From positions 1-5,907 of the IMG/VR virus record IMGVR_UViG_2681813320_000008: a DNA stretch of 5,907 bases. One strand, written 5' to 3'. This stretch comes from a virus. Its lineage: Duplodnaviria > Heunggongvirae > Uroviricota > Caudoviricetes. Below are positions 2,280 to 5,875 of this stretch, in pieces (the stretch's first letter is position 1; each line of letters starts with the position of its first letter). A program made the translations under genes and the position numbers. The notes under the pieces are model-generated. The model saw only the letters and a list, made by a program, of their open reading frames with translations, was not told where the DNA came from and searched no databases.

Positions 2280-2297
2280 TCTGTGCGGGGAATGAAA

Positions 2298-2624
2298 ATG
2301 AAAAGAAATCTTCCGTTAATTATTTTGTTGTCTTCTCTGGTTATGGGCTGTACGCAACATAAAACAGATATGCCCCGACAGTTGGTTAAGGCATTACCAC
2401 AATATCCGGCCTATGCAGCGGCAAATTATATAAAGGGACGGGTTGATGTGAGGTTTGATATTGGTGCTGATGGTACTGTCACCCGAATTGAGTTTATTCG
2501 TTCAGAGCCGCACCATCTGTTTGATGAGCAGGTTGTAAAGGCGATGGCAAAATGGCGATTTGAGAAGGACAGGCCGTGTAAAGGCGTGAAGAAAACGTTT
2601 ATCTTTAGTCCTTCTGCGCACTGA
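2298..2624 (+). CDS. Lipoprotein with TonB C-terminal-like domain (phage moron candidate)
   Basis: 108-aa product MKRNLPLIILLSSLVMGC... with basic n-region, hydrophobic core and lipobox-like LVMGC. Mature part carries the TonB C-terminal pattern PQYPAYAAANYIKGRVDVRFDIGADGTVTRIEFIRSEPHHLFDEQVVKAMAKWRFEKD...KKTFIF (YP..A...G.V.V.F.I..DG.V......S...LFD..V..A...W.F). It lacks the proline-rich spacer and N-terminal membrane anchor of true TonB. Start chosen at ATG 2298 (GGGG 7 nt upstream) rather than the track's GTG 2283. Confidence 0.75.
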   Translation: MKRNLPLIILLSSLVMGCTQHKTDMPRQLVKALPQYPAYAAANYIKGRVDVRFDIGADGTVTRIEFIRSEPHHLFDEQVVKAMAKWRFEKDRPCKGVKKTFIFSPSAH

Positions 2625-2755: not shown

Positions 2756-2956
2756 TCATTTCTCGTTATTTGTCATGCTGGCCGGGCGCAGATGCGTTGC
2801 ATCTGTTGCCAGCCTTCTCCTGCAGGCTTCAATAACCCACGCTGAAAAGTTACCGGACCCTTTATGCTCAAGGGCGATGTTGATCTGTTCAATCATGTGA
2901 TTGGGGAAACGGATATTGCGGGTTGTGGTTCTGCGGGTACGGTTTTTCGATGACAT
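2756..2956 (-). CDS. Small ribbon-helix-helix DNA-binding protein, YlcI/YnfO-like (DUF3950 family) as recalled from E. coli cryptic prophages
   Basis: 66-aa product MSSKNRTRRTTTRNIRFPNHMIEQINIALEHKGSGNFSAWVIEACRRRLATDATHLRPASMTNNEK: basic N-terminus, a beta-strand-like NIRFP followed by two helices (an Arc/CopG-like arrangement). Start set at ATG 2956 with a strong RBS (AAGGA, 7-nt spacer) instead of the track's upstream ATG 3016, which would overlap the HNH gene start. Confidence 0.65.
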   Translation of the reverse strand: MSSKNRTRRTTTRNIRFPNHMIEQINIALEHKGSGNFSAWVIEACRRRLATDATHLRPASMTNNEK

Positions 2957-2997
2957 ATTTATTTCCTTTACTGATTGCCATATGACGGGGATTTTAC

Positions 2998-3363
2998 ATG
3001 GCTGAGCTTCGTACACTCCAGAGCAGAATCAAAACACTGAATACCCGACGGGTGAATATTCTGAAGGGTGAACAGCGTCGTGTCAGTGGCAGTGCACGTG
3101 TTTCCCTCAAGCGTCATATCTGGCTCAGGGATGCCGGGCAGTGCTGTCTCTGTGGTCGTGTGGTTGACCTCTGTGACAGTGAACTCGATCACCGAATTGC
3201 ACTTCAGTTCGGTGGTGGTAATGAGGAGACGAATCTCTGGACGCTCTGTACCGAATGCCATCGACAAAAGTCTGCTCGTGAAGCGGCGAGTGATATGCCG
3301 GACCCGACGCTGCCGGAGGTGTCCGGAGGTAGTGGCAGAGAGGACGACATCATCGGACTGTAA
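2998..3363 (+). CDS. HNH endonuclease, phage packaging-associated
   Basis: 121-aa product with two CxxC pairs (CCLCG, CTEC) and the HNH core DHRIALQFGGGNEETNLWTLCTECH; sits immediately upstream of the putative cos region and terminase genes, the arrangement known for HK97-type cos phages (gp74). RBS ACGGGGA 7 nt upstream of the ATG. Confidence 0.85.
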   Translation: MAELRTLQSRIKTLNTRRVNILKGEQRRVSGSARVSLKRHIWLRDAGQCCLCGRVVDLCDSELDHRIALQFGGGNEETNLWTLCTECHRQKSAREAASDMPDPTLPEVSGGSGREDDIIGL

Positions 3364-3653
3364 CCCGACCCCGGGGGGGTATCATCCGGCGTAAAAAACG
3401 ATCGCTTTGGACACCGCGCCCCCTCTCACGCAGAGAAAAAATTCCCGTTTCAGGGCAGTTAACATGTTAACTGGCTGCCCGGGCATTTTTGCGGTTTTTA
3501 TCTTTATTATTCAGTTTGTTGTGCGGAAAAAATGTTAACAGGCTTTTTCAGCAAATGTTAACCAGGCAGCAGTTAACATTTGCGGCATGAGACGCCGGGA
3601 AAAATGGGCTGAACCATACCCGGCTGAGTGCGTTCTGGACCCGGGAGGAGGCT
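3364..3653. other. Putative cos / packaging-initiation region (non-coding, between HNH endonuclease and terminase small subunit)
   Basis: 290-bp non-coding gap in the position where cos lies in HK97-like and lambda-like genomes; contains a CCCCGGGGGGG tract (3369-3379), A/T-tract-rich, probably bent DNA (3485-3530) and clustered GTTAAC-containing repeats. The exact cosN nick sites cannot be assigned from sequence alone. Confidence 0.4.
3456..3581. repeat. Cluster of five GTTAACAT/ATGTTAAC motifs: an 18-bp perfect palindrome (3456-3473), a solitary copy (3532-3539) and an inverted repeat with 10-bp arms and a 9-bp spacer (3553-3581)
   Basis: Directly seen: CAGTTAACATGTTAACTG (3456-3473) is self-complementary; AAATGTTAAC (3553-3562) and GTTAACATTT (3572-3581) are reverse complements; ATGTTAAC also occurs at 3532-3539. 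Five copies of an 8-mer in 126 bp is far above chance. Function (terminase small-subunit sites, or operator for the RHH protein) is inferred. Confidence 0.6.
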
Positions 3654-4217
3654 GTGCTGACAACGCAAAAACGAAAATTTGCGCTGGCGCTCATGTCCGG
3701 GAAAAACAAAACAGCGTCAGCCATTGCCGCCGGTTATTCGGCGAAGACCGCCAGGGTTAAAGGCTCGCAGCTGGCAAAAGATCCTGAGGTGCTTGCGTTT
3801 ATAGCCCGTAAACAATGCGAGACGGTGGAGGTGGATGAGGTTCCTGTTTACCGGCAGAAAAAATCAGAGCAGGAGGATAAACCCCGTCGCCGTGAGGCGG
3901 CTGCAATACCACAGCCGGACGAAAACAATCCGGAGATGCCACCGTCCGCGGTGATGTCTCCTGGTATTGAATATATGGAGGATGGTCTTCCCGATCCGGT
4001 GAAAGCCATGGGGCGGATCCTGGTGGAAAACCTCTGCATTGATCCGAAACTGGCACTGGATGCGGCCTGGCGTCTGGCGCAGTTCACGCACCATAAAAAA
4101 GGGGATACCGGGAAAAAATCGGCAAAAGGTGATGCCGCGAAAAAAGCGGCTAACCGTTTTGCGGTGCCACCGCCCCCCCGACTGGTGGTGAATAACGATA
4201 ATGAGGGCAACGGATGA
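3654..4217 (+). CDS. terS: Terminase small subunit (Terminase_2-like, N-terminal helix-turn-helix)
   Basis: 187-aa product; N-terminal KRKFALALMSGKNKTASAIAAGYSAKTARVKGSQLAKDPEV fits the TerS HTH pattern (AGYS.KTA); charged low-complexity C-terminus; stop overlaps the terminase large subunit start (ATGA at 4214-4217). GTG start at 3654 with GGAGG 5 nt upstream. Confidence 0.8.
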   Translation: MLTTQKRKFALALMSGKNKTASAIAAGYSAKTARVKGSQLAKDPEVLAFIARKQCETVEVDEVPVYRQKKSEQEDKPRRREAAAIPQPDENNPEMPPSAVMSPGIEYMEDGLPDPVKAMGRILVENLCIDPKLALDAAWRLAQFTHHKKGDTGKKSAKGDAAKKAANRFAVPPPPRLVVNNDNEGNG

Positions 4218-5875
4218 TACCTGTATGGAGCACAGCCTGCCCGGACTGGGCAGAGCGCCTGAAAAAGGGGCTGTCGATTATTCCGGATCCGATTTATCCG
4301 GACGAGGCCGCACATGCCCTGGCGATTTTTAAACAACTGCGGATTGTGGATGCACCTGGTAGCCCTACGTTCGGGGAGTCCTGTGCACCGTGGGTGTTTG
4401 ACCTGGTGGCGGCCCTGTTTGGCTCCTACGATGCGCAGACCGGTGTACGCCATATCAAGGAAGTTTTTATCCTTATCCCCAAGAAAAACTCGAAGTCCAC
4501 GCTGGCCGCGGGGATCATGATGACTGCACTGTTACTGAACTGGCGGCAGGCGGCGGGTTACACGATTCTGGCCCCGACTGTGGAGGTGGCGGCCAACGCC
4601 TTCAACCCTGCCCGGGATATGGTACGACGTGACGATGATCTGGATGACCTCTGCCAGGTACAGACCCATATCCGGACCATCACCCACCGAGTGACGGACA
4701 CCACCCTGAAGGTGGTGGCAGCCGATCCGAATACGGTGTCCGGTATCAAGTCCGTGGGTACGCTGATTGATGAGTTGTGGCTGTTTGGCAAGCAGTGCAA
4801 GGCGGAGGACATGTTACGTGAAGCCATAGGCGGCCTTGCCTCCCGCCCGGAAGGGTTTGTGGTGTATACGACCACCCAGTCGAATGAACCGCCCGCCGGG
4901 GTGTTCAGACAGAAACTGCAGTACGCCCGGGATGTGCGCGACGGCAAAATTCATGATCCGCACTTTCTGCCGGTGATATTTGAACACCCTCCTGAAATGG
5001 TGGAAAGCGGGGCTAACCTGCTGATGGAAAACCTCGCCATGGTCAATCCGAATCTCGGCTATTCAGTGGATGAGGCCTTTCTGTACCGGGAGTACCGTAA
5101 AGCCCGGGAAGCCGGTGAAGAGACATTCCGGGGGTTCATGTCAAAACACGCCAATGTGGAAATTGGTCTTGCCCTGCGCTCTGACCGCTGGGCGGGGGCT
5201 GATTTCTGGGAAGAGCAGGGCCGTTGTATCAGCCTGGACGATATCCTGCGTCGTGCTGATGTGGTGACGGTGGGGATTGACGGCGGAGGGCTGGATGATC
5301 TGCTGGGGATGTATGTGACTGGGCGTGACCGGGAGACCCGCGAATGGCTGGGCTGGGGCCATGCCTGGGCGCATGAAACCGCGGTGGTCCGACGGAAGAG
5401 CGAGGCGTCCCGGTTTCAGGATCTTGTTGCCTGTGGAGATATGACCATTGTCCGGCGTGTCGGGGATGACACGGCGGAAGTGGCGGAATATGTGCGTCGC
5501 ATTCATGAGGCTGAGTTACTGGACCATATCGGTATTGACCCGTCAGGGGTGGGGCAGATTCTGGATTCACTGGCGGAAGCCGGGATCCCCGACGGAATTG
5601 TGGTGGGGATAAGCCAGGGCTGGAAACTGGGCGGGGCCATTAAAACCACCGAGCGCAAACTGGCTGAAGGGGTGCTGGTGCATGGTGACCAGCCCCTGAT
5701 GGCCTGGTGTGTCGGCAATGCCCGGGTGGAGCCTAAAGGTAACGCCATTCTTATCACCAAACAGGCCAGTGGACGGGGAAAAATTGACCCGCTGATGGCG
5801 CTGTTCAATGCGGTCTCCCTGATGTCCCTTAACCCGGAACCGAAAAAGAAAGAATATGCGGTTTTTTTCATATAA
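4214..5875 (+). CDS. terL: Terminase large subunit (Terminase_1 / HK97-like ATPase-nuclease)
   Basis: 553-aa product; Walker A-like ILIPKKNSKST; Walker B-like hydrophobic stretch ending LIDE; C-terminal nuclease-domain pattern (VTVGIDGGGLDDL ... KIDPLMALFNAVSLMS) typical of the family; translationally coupled to terS. Confidence 0.92.
   Translation: MIPVWSTACPDWAERLKKGLSIIPDPIYPDEAAHALAIFKQLRIVDAPGSPTFGESCAPWVFDLVAALFGSYDAQTGVRHIKEVFILIPKKNSKSTLAAGIMMTALLLNWRQAAGYTILAPTVEVAANAFNPARDMVRRDDDLDDLCQVQTHIRTITHRVTDTTLKVVAADPNTVSGIKSVGTLIDELWLFGKQCKAEDMLREAIGGLASRPEGFVVYTTTQSNEPPAGVFRQKLQYARDVRDGKIHDPHFLPVIFEHPPEMVESGANLLMENLAMVNPNLGYSVDEAFLYREYRKAREAGEETFRGFMSKHANVEIGLALRSDRWAGADFWEEQGRCISLDDILRRADVVTVGIDGGGLDDLLGMYVTGRDRETREWLGWGHAWAHETAVVRRKSEASRFQDLVACGDMTIVRRVGDDTAEVAEYVRRIHEAELLDHIGIDPSGVGQILDSLAEAGIPDGIVVGISQGWKLGGAIKTTERKLAEGVLVHGDQPLMAWCVGNARVEPKGNAILITKQASGRGKIDPLMALFNAVSLMSLNPEPKKKEYAVFFI

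What the first reader, a model, noticed from the sequence alone, without database searches (positions are those of the whole stretch)
3456..3581. GTTAACAT palindromes and inverted repeats in the putative cos region
Five copies of GTTAACAT/ATGTTAAC occur in 126 bp: an 18-bp perfect palindrome (CAGTTAACATGTTAACTG), a solitary copy, and a 10-bp-arm inverted repeat separated by 9 bp. These flank an A/T-tract-rich segment between the HNH endonuclease and terminase small subunit. The layout resembles cosB-type terminase small-subunit binding sites around a bent region, but with a dyad arrangement more typical of an operator. An alternative is that they are binding sites for the adjacent RHH protein, coupling packaging or late expression to that regulator.
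Basis: partly seen in the sequence, partly recalled or inferred. Interest (0 to 1): 0.55.

Follow-up and report, generated by a model that had tools for sequence, protein, structure and literature searches.

The report
Terminase recognition repeats beside phage cos
The five GTTAACAT repeats are real and are most likely the cosB-type sites where this Shiga-toxin-type prophage's small terminase recognises its own DNA next to the cos cut for packaging; this is an ordinary kind of element, but undescribed for this phage family and unusually informative in how it has evolved.

Summary
There are five exact GTTAACAT copies, all within 3458-3579, against 0.13 expected by chance. The inverted-repeat arms are 12 nt, not 10.

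The window is the lysis, HNH, TerS and TerL region of a BP-4795/2851-type Stx prophage. In the near-identical phage Lys8385Vzw, virion ends were mapped with PhageTerm. By homology, the 10-nt 3' cohesive end lies at window 3415-3424. The repeats therefore sit at +34 to +155 on the first-packaged, terminase-gene side, where cosB would be.

- The octamers are 97% conserved, against 57% for the intervening spacer, in a diverged relative.
- All five copies switch together to RTAAACAT in lineages whose TerS recognition helix reads KSARCKG instead of KTARVKG. This occurs in two protein backgrounds.
- Satellite-like islands share the cos block but pair their own TerS with AAGTTACA repeats.
- The first site always lies at +32 to +36 from the cut, wherever terS starts.

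The neighbouring RHH (DUF3950) gene is absent from 22 relatives that keep the site. No binding was tested.

Verdict: a cosB-like array, a new variant of a known kind. Confidence about 0.75; moderate interest.

The parts
2998..3363 (+). HNH endonuclease gene, the likely cos-cleavage helper
   Evidence: PF01844 match, E=7e-7. A homologue sits directly upstream of the cos block in 20 of 22 distant relatives. In HK97 the HNH protein gp74 stimulates cos cleavage (PMC11331095).
3373..3379 (+). Poly-G tract marking the left edge of the conserved non-coding cos block
   Evidence: A run of 7-9 G is conserved at this place across many Enterobacterales genera. Its function is unknown. It is also the junction of an ISEc20 insertion in PPompW prophages.
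3409..3443 (+). Conserved cos core GGACACCGCGCCCCCTCTCACGCAGAGAAAAAATT, including an A-tract at 3436-3441
   Evidence: This non-coding block is nearly invariant in phages and satellites whose TerS is only 33-49% identical.
3415..3424 (+). Inferred cosN: the 10-nt 3' cohesive end CGCGCCCCCT. The first-packaged end starts at 3425.
   Evidence: The Lys8385Vzw record ends ...GGACACCGCCCCCCCT and starts CTCACGCAGAG.... [quoted passage not shown] The placement in the window is by homology.
3456..3473 (.). Site 1: the 18-bp palindrome CAGTTAACATGTTAACTG (two half-sites, +32 to +49 from the cut). It is the relic of the ancestral terS start codon.
   Evidence: The homologous RTAAACATGTTAAC straddles the terS ATG in canonical relatives. 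In every lineage the first site lies at +32 to +36.
3484..3531 (+). T-rich spacer with T-runs at 3486-3490 and 3496-3500 and an A-run at 3526-3531; a candidate bend
   Evidence: Read directly from the sequence. A T-rich segment with a shared ATTCAnnnnGTT core is kept in four diverged lineages. No IHF consensus is found at 1 mismatch or fewer.
3530..3541 (-). Site 2: the solitary copy AAATGTTAACAG (+108 to +115)
   Evidence: It is retained in L165 and switched to AATGTTTATA in L173.
3551..3583 (.). Site 3: inverted repeat GCAAATGTTAAC-N9-GTTAACATTTGC (+127 to +159)
   Evidence: It resembles the in-gene repeat AATGTTTATAccccagcaGTAAACA found at +244 in canonical terS genes.
3654..4217 (+). terS, the small terminase. 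The N-terminal HTH domain spans residues 1-56 and the recognition helix residues 30-41 (nt 3741-3776).
   Evidence: PF03592 match. In the AF2 model the N-terminal domain has pLDDT 92-96. The Foldseek top hit is the SF6 small-terminase DNA-binding domain 4zc3, TM 0.84.
4214..5875 (+). terL, an HK97-type large terminase
   Evidence: PF03354 and PF20441 matches. phmmer hit to the HK97 TerL structure 6z6d, E=1e-9.

Best explanation
The GTTAACAT copies are the cosB of this phage: an array of recognition words for the N-terminal helix-turn-helix domains of the small terminase (TerS).

The array lies just inside the first-packaged end, 30-160 bp from the cos cut at 3424/3425. The inferred sequence of events is:
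1. A TerS oligomer binds the palindrome at +32 and the sites at +108 to +159. The T-rich segment between them probably allows the DNA to bend or wrap.
2. This positions the HK97-type TerL and the HNH endonuclease on the conserved cos core, where they make the 10-nt 3' staggered cut.
3. Packaging starts towards terS and terL.

In the ancestral layout, still seen in most relatives, site 1 straddles the terS start codon and a second site lies inside the terS linker coding sequence. In the Stx-phage lineage all sites lie in a 230-bp non-coding spacer, and terS has a new start at 3654.

Shown: the position relative to mapped ends, selective conservation, covariation with the TerS helix, and the fold of the TerS domain. 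Inferred: binding itself, the stoichiometry, bending, and the order of events.
For: 1. Position. Virion ends of Lys8385Vzw, whose spacer is about 97% identical, place the cut at window 3424/3425 with 3' cohesive ends. The repeats then lie at +34, +40, +108, +131 and +148 on the terminase-gene side. This matches lambda cosB and the HK97 TerS site at +15 to +29.

2. Uniqueness. Five of six copies in the 50 kb of the phage genome searched are here.

3. Purifying selection. Against L165 (TerS 65% identical), 37 of 38 motif positions are identical, compared with 104 of 184 in the rest of the spacer; Fisher p=1e-7.

4. Concerted switch. L173, L174, L294, L296 and L297 carry RTAAACAT in all copies, with the same architecture, and their TerS helix is KSARCKG instead of KTARVKG. 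P0066 and P0023 carry this helix in different backgrounds: their N-terminal domains are 75% identical to each other, but 86-88% identical to neighbours that lack the C-type helix. I predicted the motif from the helix before looking at L294, L296 and L297, and the prediction held.

5. Satellites. Satellite-like islands with TerS helix KTARVKG[W/C/Y] share the cos core but carry AAGTTACA repeats.

6. Anchoring. The first site stays at +32 to +36 whether terS starts at +40, +65 or +230. The function is therefore tied to the cut, not to translation.

7. DNA-level constraint within coding sequence. All 24 canonical spacers use the rare Leu codon TTA where the start overlaps the site, whereas 6 of 7 lineages with a displaced start use another Leu codon. 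In the in-gene site, the Val GTT, Val GTA and Asn AAC third positions are fixed while the Ala codon between them varies.

8. Fold. The TerS N-terminal domain is an SF6-type HTH. The co-varying residues 32, 35 and 38 lie in helix 30-41.
Against: - No binding, footprint or packaging assay exists for this family, so everything here is comparative.
- The ends were mapped in a relative by PhageTerm, not in this prophage.
- Covariation is partly confounded by linkage. cosB and the 5' end of terS are adjacent and recombine as a unit, and the number of independent switches is small: about 2 for the C-type helix and 1 for the satellite clade.
- In the closest solved relative, SF6, individual HTHs bind pac DNA weakly and with little sequence specificity (PMC4737164). 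Discrete word-reading would be a departure from that.
- No single-residue code holds everywhere. L092 and L095 mix TTAAC and TAAAC forms.
- No IHF consensus was found in the T-rich segment.
Confidence: 0.75

Rival explanations
1. The repeats are operators for the neighbouring DUF3950 (YlcI/YnfO, RHH-like) protein, coupling late expression or packaging to that regulator.
For: The gene lies 440 bp away on the opposite strand. Dyad-symmetric sites suit dimeric RHH proteins. L173 and L174, which carry the switched motif, have a DUF3950 copy only 88% identical, so covariation is not excluded within E. coli.
Against: tblastn finds no DUF3950 homologue within 2 kb upstream in any of the 22 canonical relatives that keep the palindrome at +33, nor in the satellite islands that have their own motif. 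The dyad arrangement is not conserved, since L297 has direct repeats. The HNH gene lies between the RHH gene and the sites.
Confidence: 0.04
2. The sites are bound by TerS mainly to autoregulate terS transcription or translation, acting as an operator at the gene start, and not to specify packaging.
For: In most relatives the palindrome straddles the terS start codon and abuts its Shine-Dalgarno sequence. TerS binding there would be expected to affect translation. This could coexist with a cosB role.
Against: In the window, L165, L173, L297 and the satellites, the start codon has moved 25-200 bp away while the first site stays at +32 to +36 from the cut. The old Shine-Dalgarno sequence is degraded in the window. 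Extra copies lie far from any start, or deep inside the gene.
Confidence: 0.08
3. The palindrome and inverted repeat act as nucleic-acid hairpins (an RNA element in the late transcript, or a cruciform) and not as protein-binding words.
For: In the window both fold better than shuffled sequence: -12.4 kcal/mol (z=-2.6) and -14.0 kcal/mol (z=-3.5). The arms change together in L173.
Against: The L173 equivalents fold no better than shuffles, z=-0.5 and -0.4. The unpaired solitary copy switches in the same way as the paired arms. L297 has direct repeats. No terminator-like site is found.
Confidence: 0.03
4. The extra 190 bp is a functionless relic of a duplication or recombination that displaced terS, or an inserted mobile element, and its repeats are remnants.
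For: Site 1 is clearly the old terS start, ATG TTA AC. Relative to FSL SP-016 the segment looks like an insertion.
Against: The octamers are 97% conserved against 57% for the spacer. They switch in concert with TerS. The segment is found only in this intergenic place, with a median of 1 and at most 7 places per E. coli genome; the context was checked at one place only. It shows no significant residual similarity to a terS body.
Confidence: 0.05
5. The words are read by another protein, such as a host nucleoid protein, the HNH endonuclease or TerL.
For: The HNH and TerL genes are adjacent and must act at cos. The T-rich DNA could attract host bending proteins.
Against: Three motif variants occur in the same host species, E. 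coli. Satellites lacking HNH and TerL genes still carry a private motif together with a private TerS. The covariation maps to the TerS recognition helix.
Confidence: 0.05

Closest known systems
Phage lambda cosB (R3-I1-R2-R1) read by gpNu1, and the lambda versus phage 21 packaging-specificity pair
   Same: Both are arrays of short TerS recognition repeats next to cosN, on the terminase-gene (first-packaged) side. In both, the repeats are split by a bendable segment. In both, the repeat sequence changes together with the TerS DNA-binding helix between related phages while cosN stays the same (description of lambda from PMC6092414, and established knowledge).
   Different: The TerS fold family differs (SF6-type HTH versus the Nu1 winged helix). 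The TerL is HK97-type and works with an HNH partner. The overhang is 10-nt 3' instead of 12-nt 5'. No IHF consensus was found. The ancestral sites overlap the terS coding sequence.
HK97 cos and the gp1 small-terminase site (+15 to +29)
   Same: Gene order is HNH, cos, terS, terL. The end is a 10-nt 3' overhang. TerL is homologous (6z6d, E=1e-9). The TerS site lies a few turns downstream of the cut, next to an A/T tract, and terS starts at +50 in HK97 versus +40 in the canonical relatives here.
   Different: The window's TerS matches Pfam Terminase_2, and no HK97 small-terminase chain appeared among its PDB sequence matches; HK97 gp1 threads DNA through its central tunnel and reads a single 15-bp site. 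Here the TerS is an SF6-type HTH protein with five or more repeated words over 125 bp. The cos sequences show no similarity.
SPP1/SF6 G1P small terminase and its pac boxes
   Same: The N-terminal domain has the same fold (4zc3, TM 0.84, 30% identity; profile E=0.006-0.015). Both use multiple sites spread over about 100 bp or more of intrinsically bent DNA, overlapping or preceding the terS gene.
   Different: SF6 and SPP1 are headful (pac) packagers. SF6 HTHs were reported to bind with little local sequence specificity (PMC4737164). Here the phage has defined cos ends, and the word is discrete and co-varies with the recognition helix.
Satellite (SaPI/PICI) small terminases that redirect helper packaging
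   Same: The AlpA/primase islands found here carry their own TerS homologue and their own repeat word beside a helper-type cos core. One shares 71% identity in its C-terminal domain with a phage TerS. TerS-encoding E. coli PICIs without known helpers are described in PMC6092414.
   Different: This concerns related loci, not the window. The known E. coli example, EcCICFT073, uses lambda-type cos and no TerS. Helper relationships here are only inferred.

Membership tests
cos packaging site of the HK97 type (HNH-assisted, 10-nt 3' ends) | HK97-family large terminase encoded next to the site | tested here: met
   PF03354 and PF20441 matches. phmmer hit to the HK97 TerL structure 6z6d, E=1e-9.
cos packaging site of the HK97 type (HNH-assisted, 10-nt 3' ends) | HNH endonuclease gene immediately upstream of cos | tested here: met
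   HNH gene at 2998-3363. It is conserved in 20 of 22 distant relatives.
cos packaging site of the HK97 type (HNH-assisted, 10-nt 3' ends) | Defined cohesive ends mapped in virion DNA | tested here: met
   Met by homology only. The Lys8385Vzw record ends, and its PhageTerm result of 3' cohesive ends with cos sequence CGCCCCCCCT, place the end at window 3415-3424. It was not mapped for this prophage itself.
cosB (small-terminase binding array, in the lambda sense) | Lies adjacent to cosN on the side packaged first, between cosN and the terminase genes | tested here: met
   The repeats lie at +34 to +155 and terS starts at +230.
cosB (small-terminase binding array, in the lambda sense) | Several copies of one recognition sequence, conserved against their surroundings | tested here: met
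   Five copies against 0.13 expected. Motif positions are 97% identical against 57% for the spacer, p=1e-7.
cosB (small-terminase binding array, in the lambda sense) | Repeat sequence changes with the TerS DNA-binding domain while cosN is shared (packaging specificity) | tested here: met
   Fifteen helix variants fall into motif classes without exception across about 85 distinct spacers. The C-type helix occurs in two protein backgrounds.
cosB (small-terminase binding array, in the lambda sense) | IHF site between the repeats | tested here: not met
   No WATCAANNNNTTR match at 1 mismatch or fewer in 3474-3531. Only a conserved ATTCAnnnnGTT core at 2 mismatches is present.
cosB (small-terminase binding array, in the lambda sense) | TerS physically binds the repeats and they are needed for packaging initiation | not testable with these tools
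   This needs EMSA or footprinting and cos-plasmid packaging assays.
SF6/SPP1-type small terminase (Pfam Terminase_2) | N-terminal helix-turn-helix DNA-binding domain of the G1P fold | tested here: met
   PF03592 match, E=1e-8. Profile hits to 4zc3, 2cmp and 3zqp. AF2 model with Foldseek TM 0.84 and rmsd 1.6 A.
SF6/SPP1-type small terminase (Pfam Terminase_2) | Headful (pac) packaging without fixed ends | tested here: not met
   The relative Lys8385Vzw has fixed 3' cohesive ends. The window element therefore works with an SF6-type reader but is not a pac system.
RHH repressor operator | Sites co-occur with the RHH gene across relatives | tested here: not met
   DUF3950 is absent within 2 kb in all 22 relatives that keep the site, and absent in the satellites.
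Intrinsic terminator or conserved RNA hairpin | Stable stem followed by a T run, or stem stability conserved in relatives | tested here: not met
   No terminator-like sites found. The L173 equivalents fold with z=-0.5 and -0.4.
Miniature mobile element | Dispersed copies in unrelated genomic contexts | tested here: not met
   Found in 1276 of 5426 E. coli genomes, median 1 and at most 7 places each, always unannotated intergenic. The one place inspected lies between HNH and terS. Only one context was inspected.

The most novel reading that the evidence does not exclude
SF6-type small terminases in this large family of Enterobacterales cos phages read discrete 8-bp words with their recognition helix. 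Packaging specificity is then set by one- or two-base changes in the word (GTTAACAT, RTAAACAT, AAGTTACA), matched by changes at helix positions 32, 35 and 38, on a shared cosN.

Phage satellites exploit this. They keep the helper's cos core and the helper's TerS C-terminal domain, but bring a private DNA-binding domain and a private word.

The Stx-phage lineage has moved an array that was originally embedded in the terS coding sequence into a dedicated, lambda-like non-coding cosB.
Probability: 0.4. Interest if true: 0.65.

Novelty: new variant of a known kind. Interest (0 to 1): 0.5.

Why it matters
This packaging module is carried by Stx1, Stx2a and Stx2c phages and by many other lambdoid prophages. 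The segment is present in 24% of complete E. coli genomes, with up to 7 copies in one genome.

Knowing the recognition words and the cut site has practical uses. It predicts which co-resident prophages and satellites can be packaged by which terminase, and therefore which toxin phages or islands can be mobilised. It also allows cos plasmids or transduction vectors to be designed for these phages.

Mechanistically, the family offers natural specificity variants for asking how a ring of SF6-type HTH domains achieves sequence-specific recognition. That question was left open by the SF6 work and answered differently for HK97.

Tried and rejected
1. Close relatives are uninformative. All 53 distinct variants from IMG/VR keep the five copies, but the whole of 3456-3680 is almost invariant there.

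2. A scan of IMG/VR for the C-type palindrome TATAAACATGTTTATA gave 91 hits. None is next to a cos block; all are chance matches in AT-rich viruses.

3. I tested whether the spacer is a decayed 5' half of an old terS. Local alignment of 3474-3653 against canonical terS bodies scores within the upper tail of shuffles (9 of 300, 9 of 300 and 67 of 300). The idea is unsupported beyond the sites themselves.

4. IHF site: no consensus match at 1 mismatch or fewer in the T-rich segment.

5. Promoter and terminator scan: no terminator was found. The single weak minus-strand promoter-like match is made of the motif itself. I did not pursue it.

6. The 24-aa hydrophobic ORF opened by the relic ATG is 24 aa in L165 but only 14 aa in L173. 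I treat it as a by-product of the T-rich strand.

7. A single-residue recognition code (T32 with GTTAAC, S32 with TAAAC) has exceptions in L092 and L095. I make no such claim.

I repeated it with alignment A4.

Full report
**Observation**

GTTAACAT occurs five times on the two strands, at 3458, 3464, 3532, 3555 and 3572, and nowhere else in the window. The expectation is 0.13 copies, and none of 200 shuffles reached five. The copies form three units:
- an 18-bp perfect palindrome at 3456-3473;
- a solitary copy at 3530-3541;
- an inverted repeat whose arms are 12 nt, not 10 (3551-3562 and 3572-3583), with a 9-nt spacer.

A T-rich stretch (3484-3531) separates the palindrome from the rest.

**Context**

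Pfam identifies the following genes:
- a SAR-type lysozyme;
- Rz and Rz1;
- a TonB_C lipoprotein;
- a DUF3950 protein on the minus strand (2756-3016);
- an HNH endonuclease (2998-3363);
- a Terminase_2 small terminase (3654-4217);
- an HK97-type large terminase (4214-5875).

The HNH-terS spacer is 95-99% identical to that of BP-4795, 2851, 1717, YYZ-2008 and many other Stx1a, Stx2a and Stx2c phages. The 3456-3653 segment is present in 1276 of 5426 complete E. coli genomes. It is always intergenic, with a median of one and at most seven places per genome.

**Where the DNA is cut**

Escherichia phage Lys8385Vzw has a TerS 95% identical to the window's. Its genome record starts CTCACGCAGAGAAAAAATTCCCG and ends GGACACCGCCCCCCCT. 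[quoted passage not shown]

By homology, the cohesive end in the window is CGCGCCCCCT at 3415-3424, and the first-packaged end starts at 3425. This agrees with the HK97 paradigm: a 10-nt 3' overhang, cleavage stimulated by the HNH protein, and a TerS site at +15 to +29 (PMC11331095). HK97 terS starts at +50.

Counted from the cut, the repeats lie at +34, +40, +108, +131 and +148, and terS starts at +230. In the 50 kb of the Lys8385Vzw genome that I searched, five of the six GTTAACAT copies are these.

**What distant relatives show**

A scan of one genome per species with a TerS alignment returned 22 full-length relatives, 33-49% identical, from many Enterobacterales genera. A scan for the cos core added more.

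Nearly all share a strongly conserved non-coding block:
- a poly-G tract;
- about 30 variable bases;
- GGACACCGCGCCCCCTCTCACGCACAGAAAAAATTCCCCTCTGGAGGGTGTAAAC;
- then ATGTTAACAGCG.

In this canonical layout there is one near-palindrome, RTAAACATGTTAAC, at +33, and the terS start codon sits inside it (ATG TTA AC = Met-Leu-Thr).

Salmonella phage FSL SP-016 illustrates this. It aligns with window 3365-3473 and then runs straight into terS, whereas the window has about 180 extra bases and a new Shine-Dalgarno sequence plus GTG start. The palindrome in the window is therefore the relic of the ancestral terS start.

Canonical phages also carry a second site inside terS at +244. It reads AATGTTTATAccccagc(a/g)GTAAACA and encodes the linker peptide NVYTPAVN. 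Within it the Val, Val and Asn third codon positions are fixed, while the Ala codon between them varies.

Likewise, all 24 canonical spacers use the rare TTA Leu codon where the start overlaps the site. Six of seven lineages with a displaced start use another Leu codon. Both patterns indicate constraint at the DNA level.

**Selective conservation and concerted switching**

L165 is an E. coli contig whose TerS is 65% identical overall but has the same recognition helix. It carries a diverged version of the long spacer that retains all five octamers. Motif positions are 97% identical to the window, against 57% elsewhere in the spacer; Fisher p=1e-7.

L173 and L174 (TerS 78% identical) keep the same architecture: a palindrome, a T-rich segment, a solitary copy, and an inverted repeat with a 9-nt spacer. 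Every copy, however, reads RTAAACAT, for example TATAAACATGTTTATA. Their TerS helix is AGYSEKSARCKGSQL instead of AGYSAKTARVKGSQL.

I then predicted the motif from the helix for further TerS variants and looked up their contigs:

| TerS variant | Helix | Result |
|---|---|---|
| P0005 | KSARCKG | RTAAACAT arrays |
| P0033 | KSARCKG | RTAAACAT arrays |
| P0066 | KSARCKG | RTAAACAT arrays |
| P0019 | A30E only | GTTAACAT kept |

P0066 sits in a different protein background. Its N-terminal domain is 86% identical to a canonical TerS but only 75% identical to P0023. Its repeats are mostly direct, so dyad symmetry is not the conserved feature.

Across about 85 distinct spacers, fifteen helix variants sort into motif classes without exception.

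**Satellites**

Several TerS homologues about 46% identical (P0064, P0055, P0113, P0110) lie in islands that carry AlpA or a D5_N/DUF5906 primase. Some (L166-L168) also encode a short capsid homologue. Most have no TerL or HNH gene nearby; the locus with P0110 (L298) does carry a gene with a TerL nuclease domain about 1.3 kb downstream of terS. These islands carry the same cos core, but it is followed at +32 by AAGTTACAC. Further copies lie upstream of terS, or at 12-bp spacing inside the terS linker.

The C-terminal domain of P0055 is 71% identical to that of the phage TerS P0038. A shared cosN, a shared TerL-facing domain, and a private DNA-binding domain with a private word is the pattern expected of packaging-specificity determinants.

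**The reader protein**

The TerS profile matches small-terminase DNA-binding domains in the PDB. An AlphaFold model has a confident N-terminal four-helix domain, with pLDDT 92-96 and helices at 4-14, 19-25, 30-41 and 44-56. Its best structural match is the SF6 small-terminase DNA-binding domain: 4zc3, TM 0.84, rmsd 1.6 A. The co-varying residues 30, 32, 35 and 38 lie in helix 30-41, the recognition helix of the HTH.

**Rivals**

- *RHH (DUF3950) operator.* This is disfavoured. No homologue lies within 2 kb in any of the 22 canonical relatives or in the satellites.
- *Translational operator.* This does not explain why the sites stay at a fixed distance from the cut when the start codon moves. 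TerS binding at the canonical start may still have a regulatory side-effect.
- *Hairpin function.* The window's structures are stable, but the L173 equivalents fold no better than shuffles, and no terminator is present.
- *Mobile element or functionless relic.* This conflicts with the selective conservation and with the single genomic context.

**Mechanism**

Shown: the position of the array relative to mapped ends, its selective conservation, its covariation with the TerS recognition helix, and the fold of the TerS domain.

Inferred: a TerS ring binds site 1 and the distal sites, with the T-rich DNA bent or wrapped between them. About 100 bp separates the palindrome from the inverted repeat, roughly one turn around an SF6-sized ring; this figure is my estimate. 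TerS then places TerL and the HNH endonuclease on the cos core about 30 bp upstream. Packaging proceeds towards terS.

**Comparison and novelty**

Functionally this is a cosB in the lambda sense. Like the lambda and phage 21 pair, it shows specificity variants on a common cosN. It differs from lambda in four respects:
- the TerS fold;
- the TerL/HNH chemistry;
- the polarity and length of the overhang;
- the lack of a recognisable IHF site.

It differs from HK97 in the TerS family and in having multiple words. It differs from SF6 and SPP1 in being a cos system with a discrete word, whereas SF6 HTHs were reported to bind with little sequence specificity (PMC4737164).

The cos sequence of this phage group is published. 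I found no description of its cosB in the searchable literature.

I rate it a new variant of a known kind, of moderate interest. My confidence in the TerS-cosB reading is about 0.75.

Noticed in passing
L166-L172 and L298 (E. coli, Salmonella and other contigs); not in the window: Satellite-like islands carry a TerS homologue (about 46% identical) with an AlpA gene or a D5_N/DUF5906 primase. L166-L168 also encode a 307-aa homologue of the C-terminal part of the helper-type fused protease-capsid protein. L166-L172 have no TerL or HNH gene nearby, whereas L298 has a gene with a TerL nuclease domain downstream of terS. All carry the same cos core as the window, followed by AAGTTACA repeats. They may be the TerS-encoding E. 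coli PICIs whose helpers were unknown in PMC6092414.
   Followed up: partly
L001 3304-3330, and the same place (+244 from the cut) in about 30 canonical loci: An inverted repeat, AATGTTTATAccccagcaGTAAACA, is embedded in the terS linker coding sequence for the peptide NVYTPAVN. Third codon positions are fixed inside the repeat and variable between its arms. This is a protein-coding stretch that doubles as a probable TerS site.
   Followed up: partly
window 3464-3538 (+): The relic ATG of the ancestral terS opens a 24-aa hydrophobic ORF, MLTGCPGIFAVFIFIIQFVVRKKC. Its stop codon lies inside the solitary motif. The ORF is also 24 aa in L165 but only 14 aa in L173, so it is probably a by-product of the T-rich strand.
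   Followed up: partly
window 3373-3379; L002 1546-3004: In PPompW prophages an IS110-family element, ISEc20, abuts the poly-G tract 45 bp upstream of the cos cut. Between the late-regulator Q gene and tRNA genes on one side and terS on the other, only the insertion sequence is annotated: no lysis or HNH genes, which precede terS in the window. Such a prophage should be unable to cut its own cos.
   Followed up: partly
P0038 (L165) versus P0055 (L169): The C-terminal (presumably TerL-facing) domain of a phage TerS is 71% identical to that of a satellite TerS, while their N-terminal DNA-binding domains are only 50% identical. This suggests a helper-satellite pairing and domain shuffling.
   Followed up: no
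L099 (Pantoea) about +35 to +62; L101 (Morganella) +36 and +230 to +254: Other lineages with displaced terS starts carry GTTAAC-type words as direct repeats: GTTAACccacccgGTTAACcctGTAAAC in L099, and three copies at 12-bp spacing inside terS in L101.
   Followed up: partly
L299 1-40 (Burkholderia phage vB_CB2a, PV072763): This linear phage record begins 21 bp before a homologous terS (35% identical). It shows GTTAAtggcTTTAAC around the start codon (ATG GCT TTA ACA). The TTAAC dyad at the terS start may therefore be much older than the Enterobacterales group.
   Followed up: no
P0001 (Escherichia albertii TerS, 202 aa): This TerS has a 15-residue tandem duplication, DKPRRREAAAIPQPD, in its disordered linker relative to the window protein.
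   Followed up: no
window 2283-2624 (+): The TonB_C-domain lipoprotein downstream of Rz/Rz1 matches a PHROG annotated as 'Rz-like spanin' (phrog_1267, E=5e-42), even though a separate Rz/Rz1 pair is present at 1408-1959.
   Followed up: no
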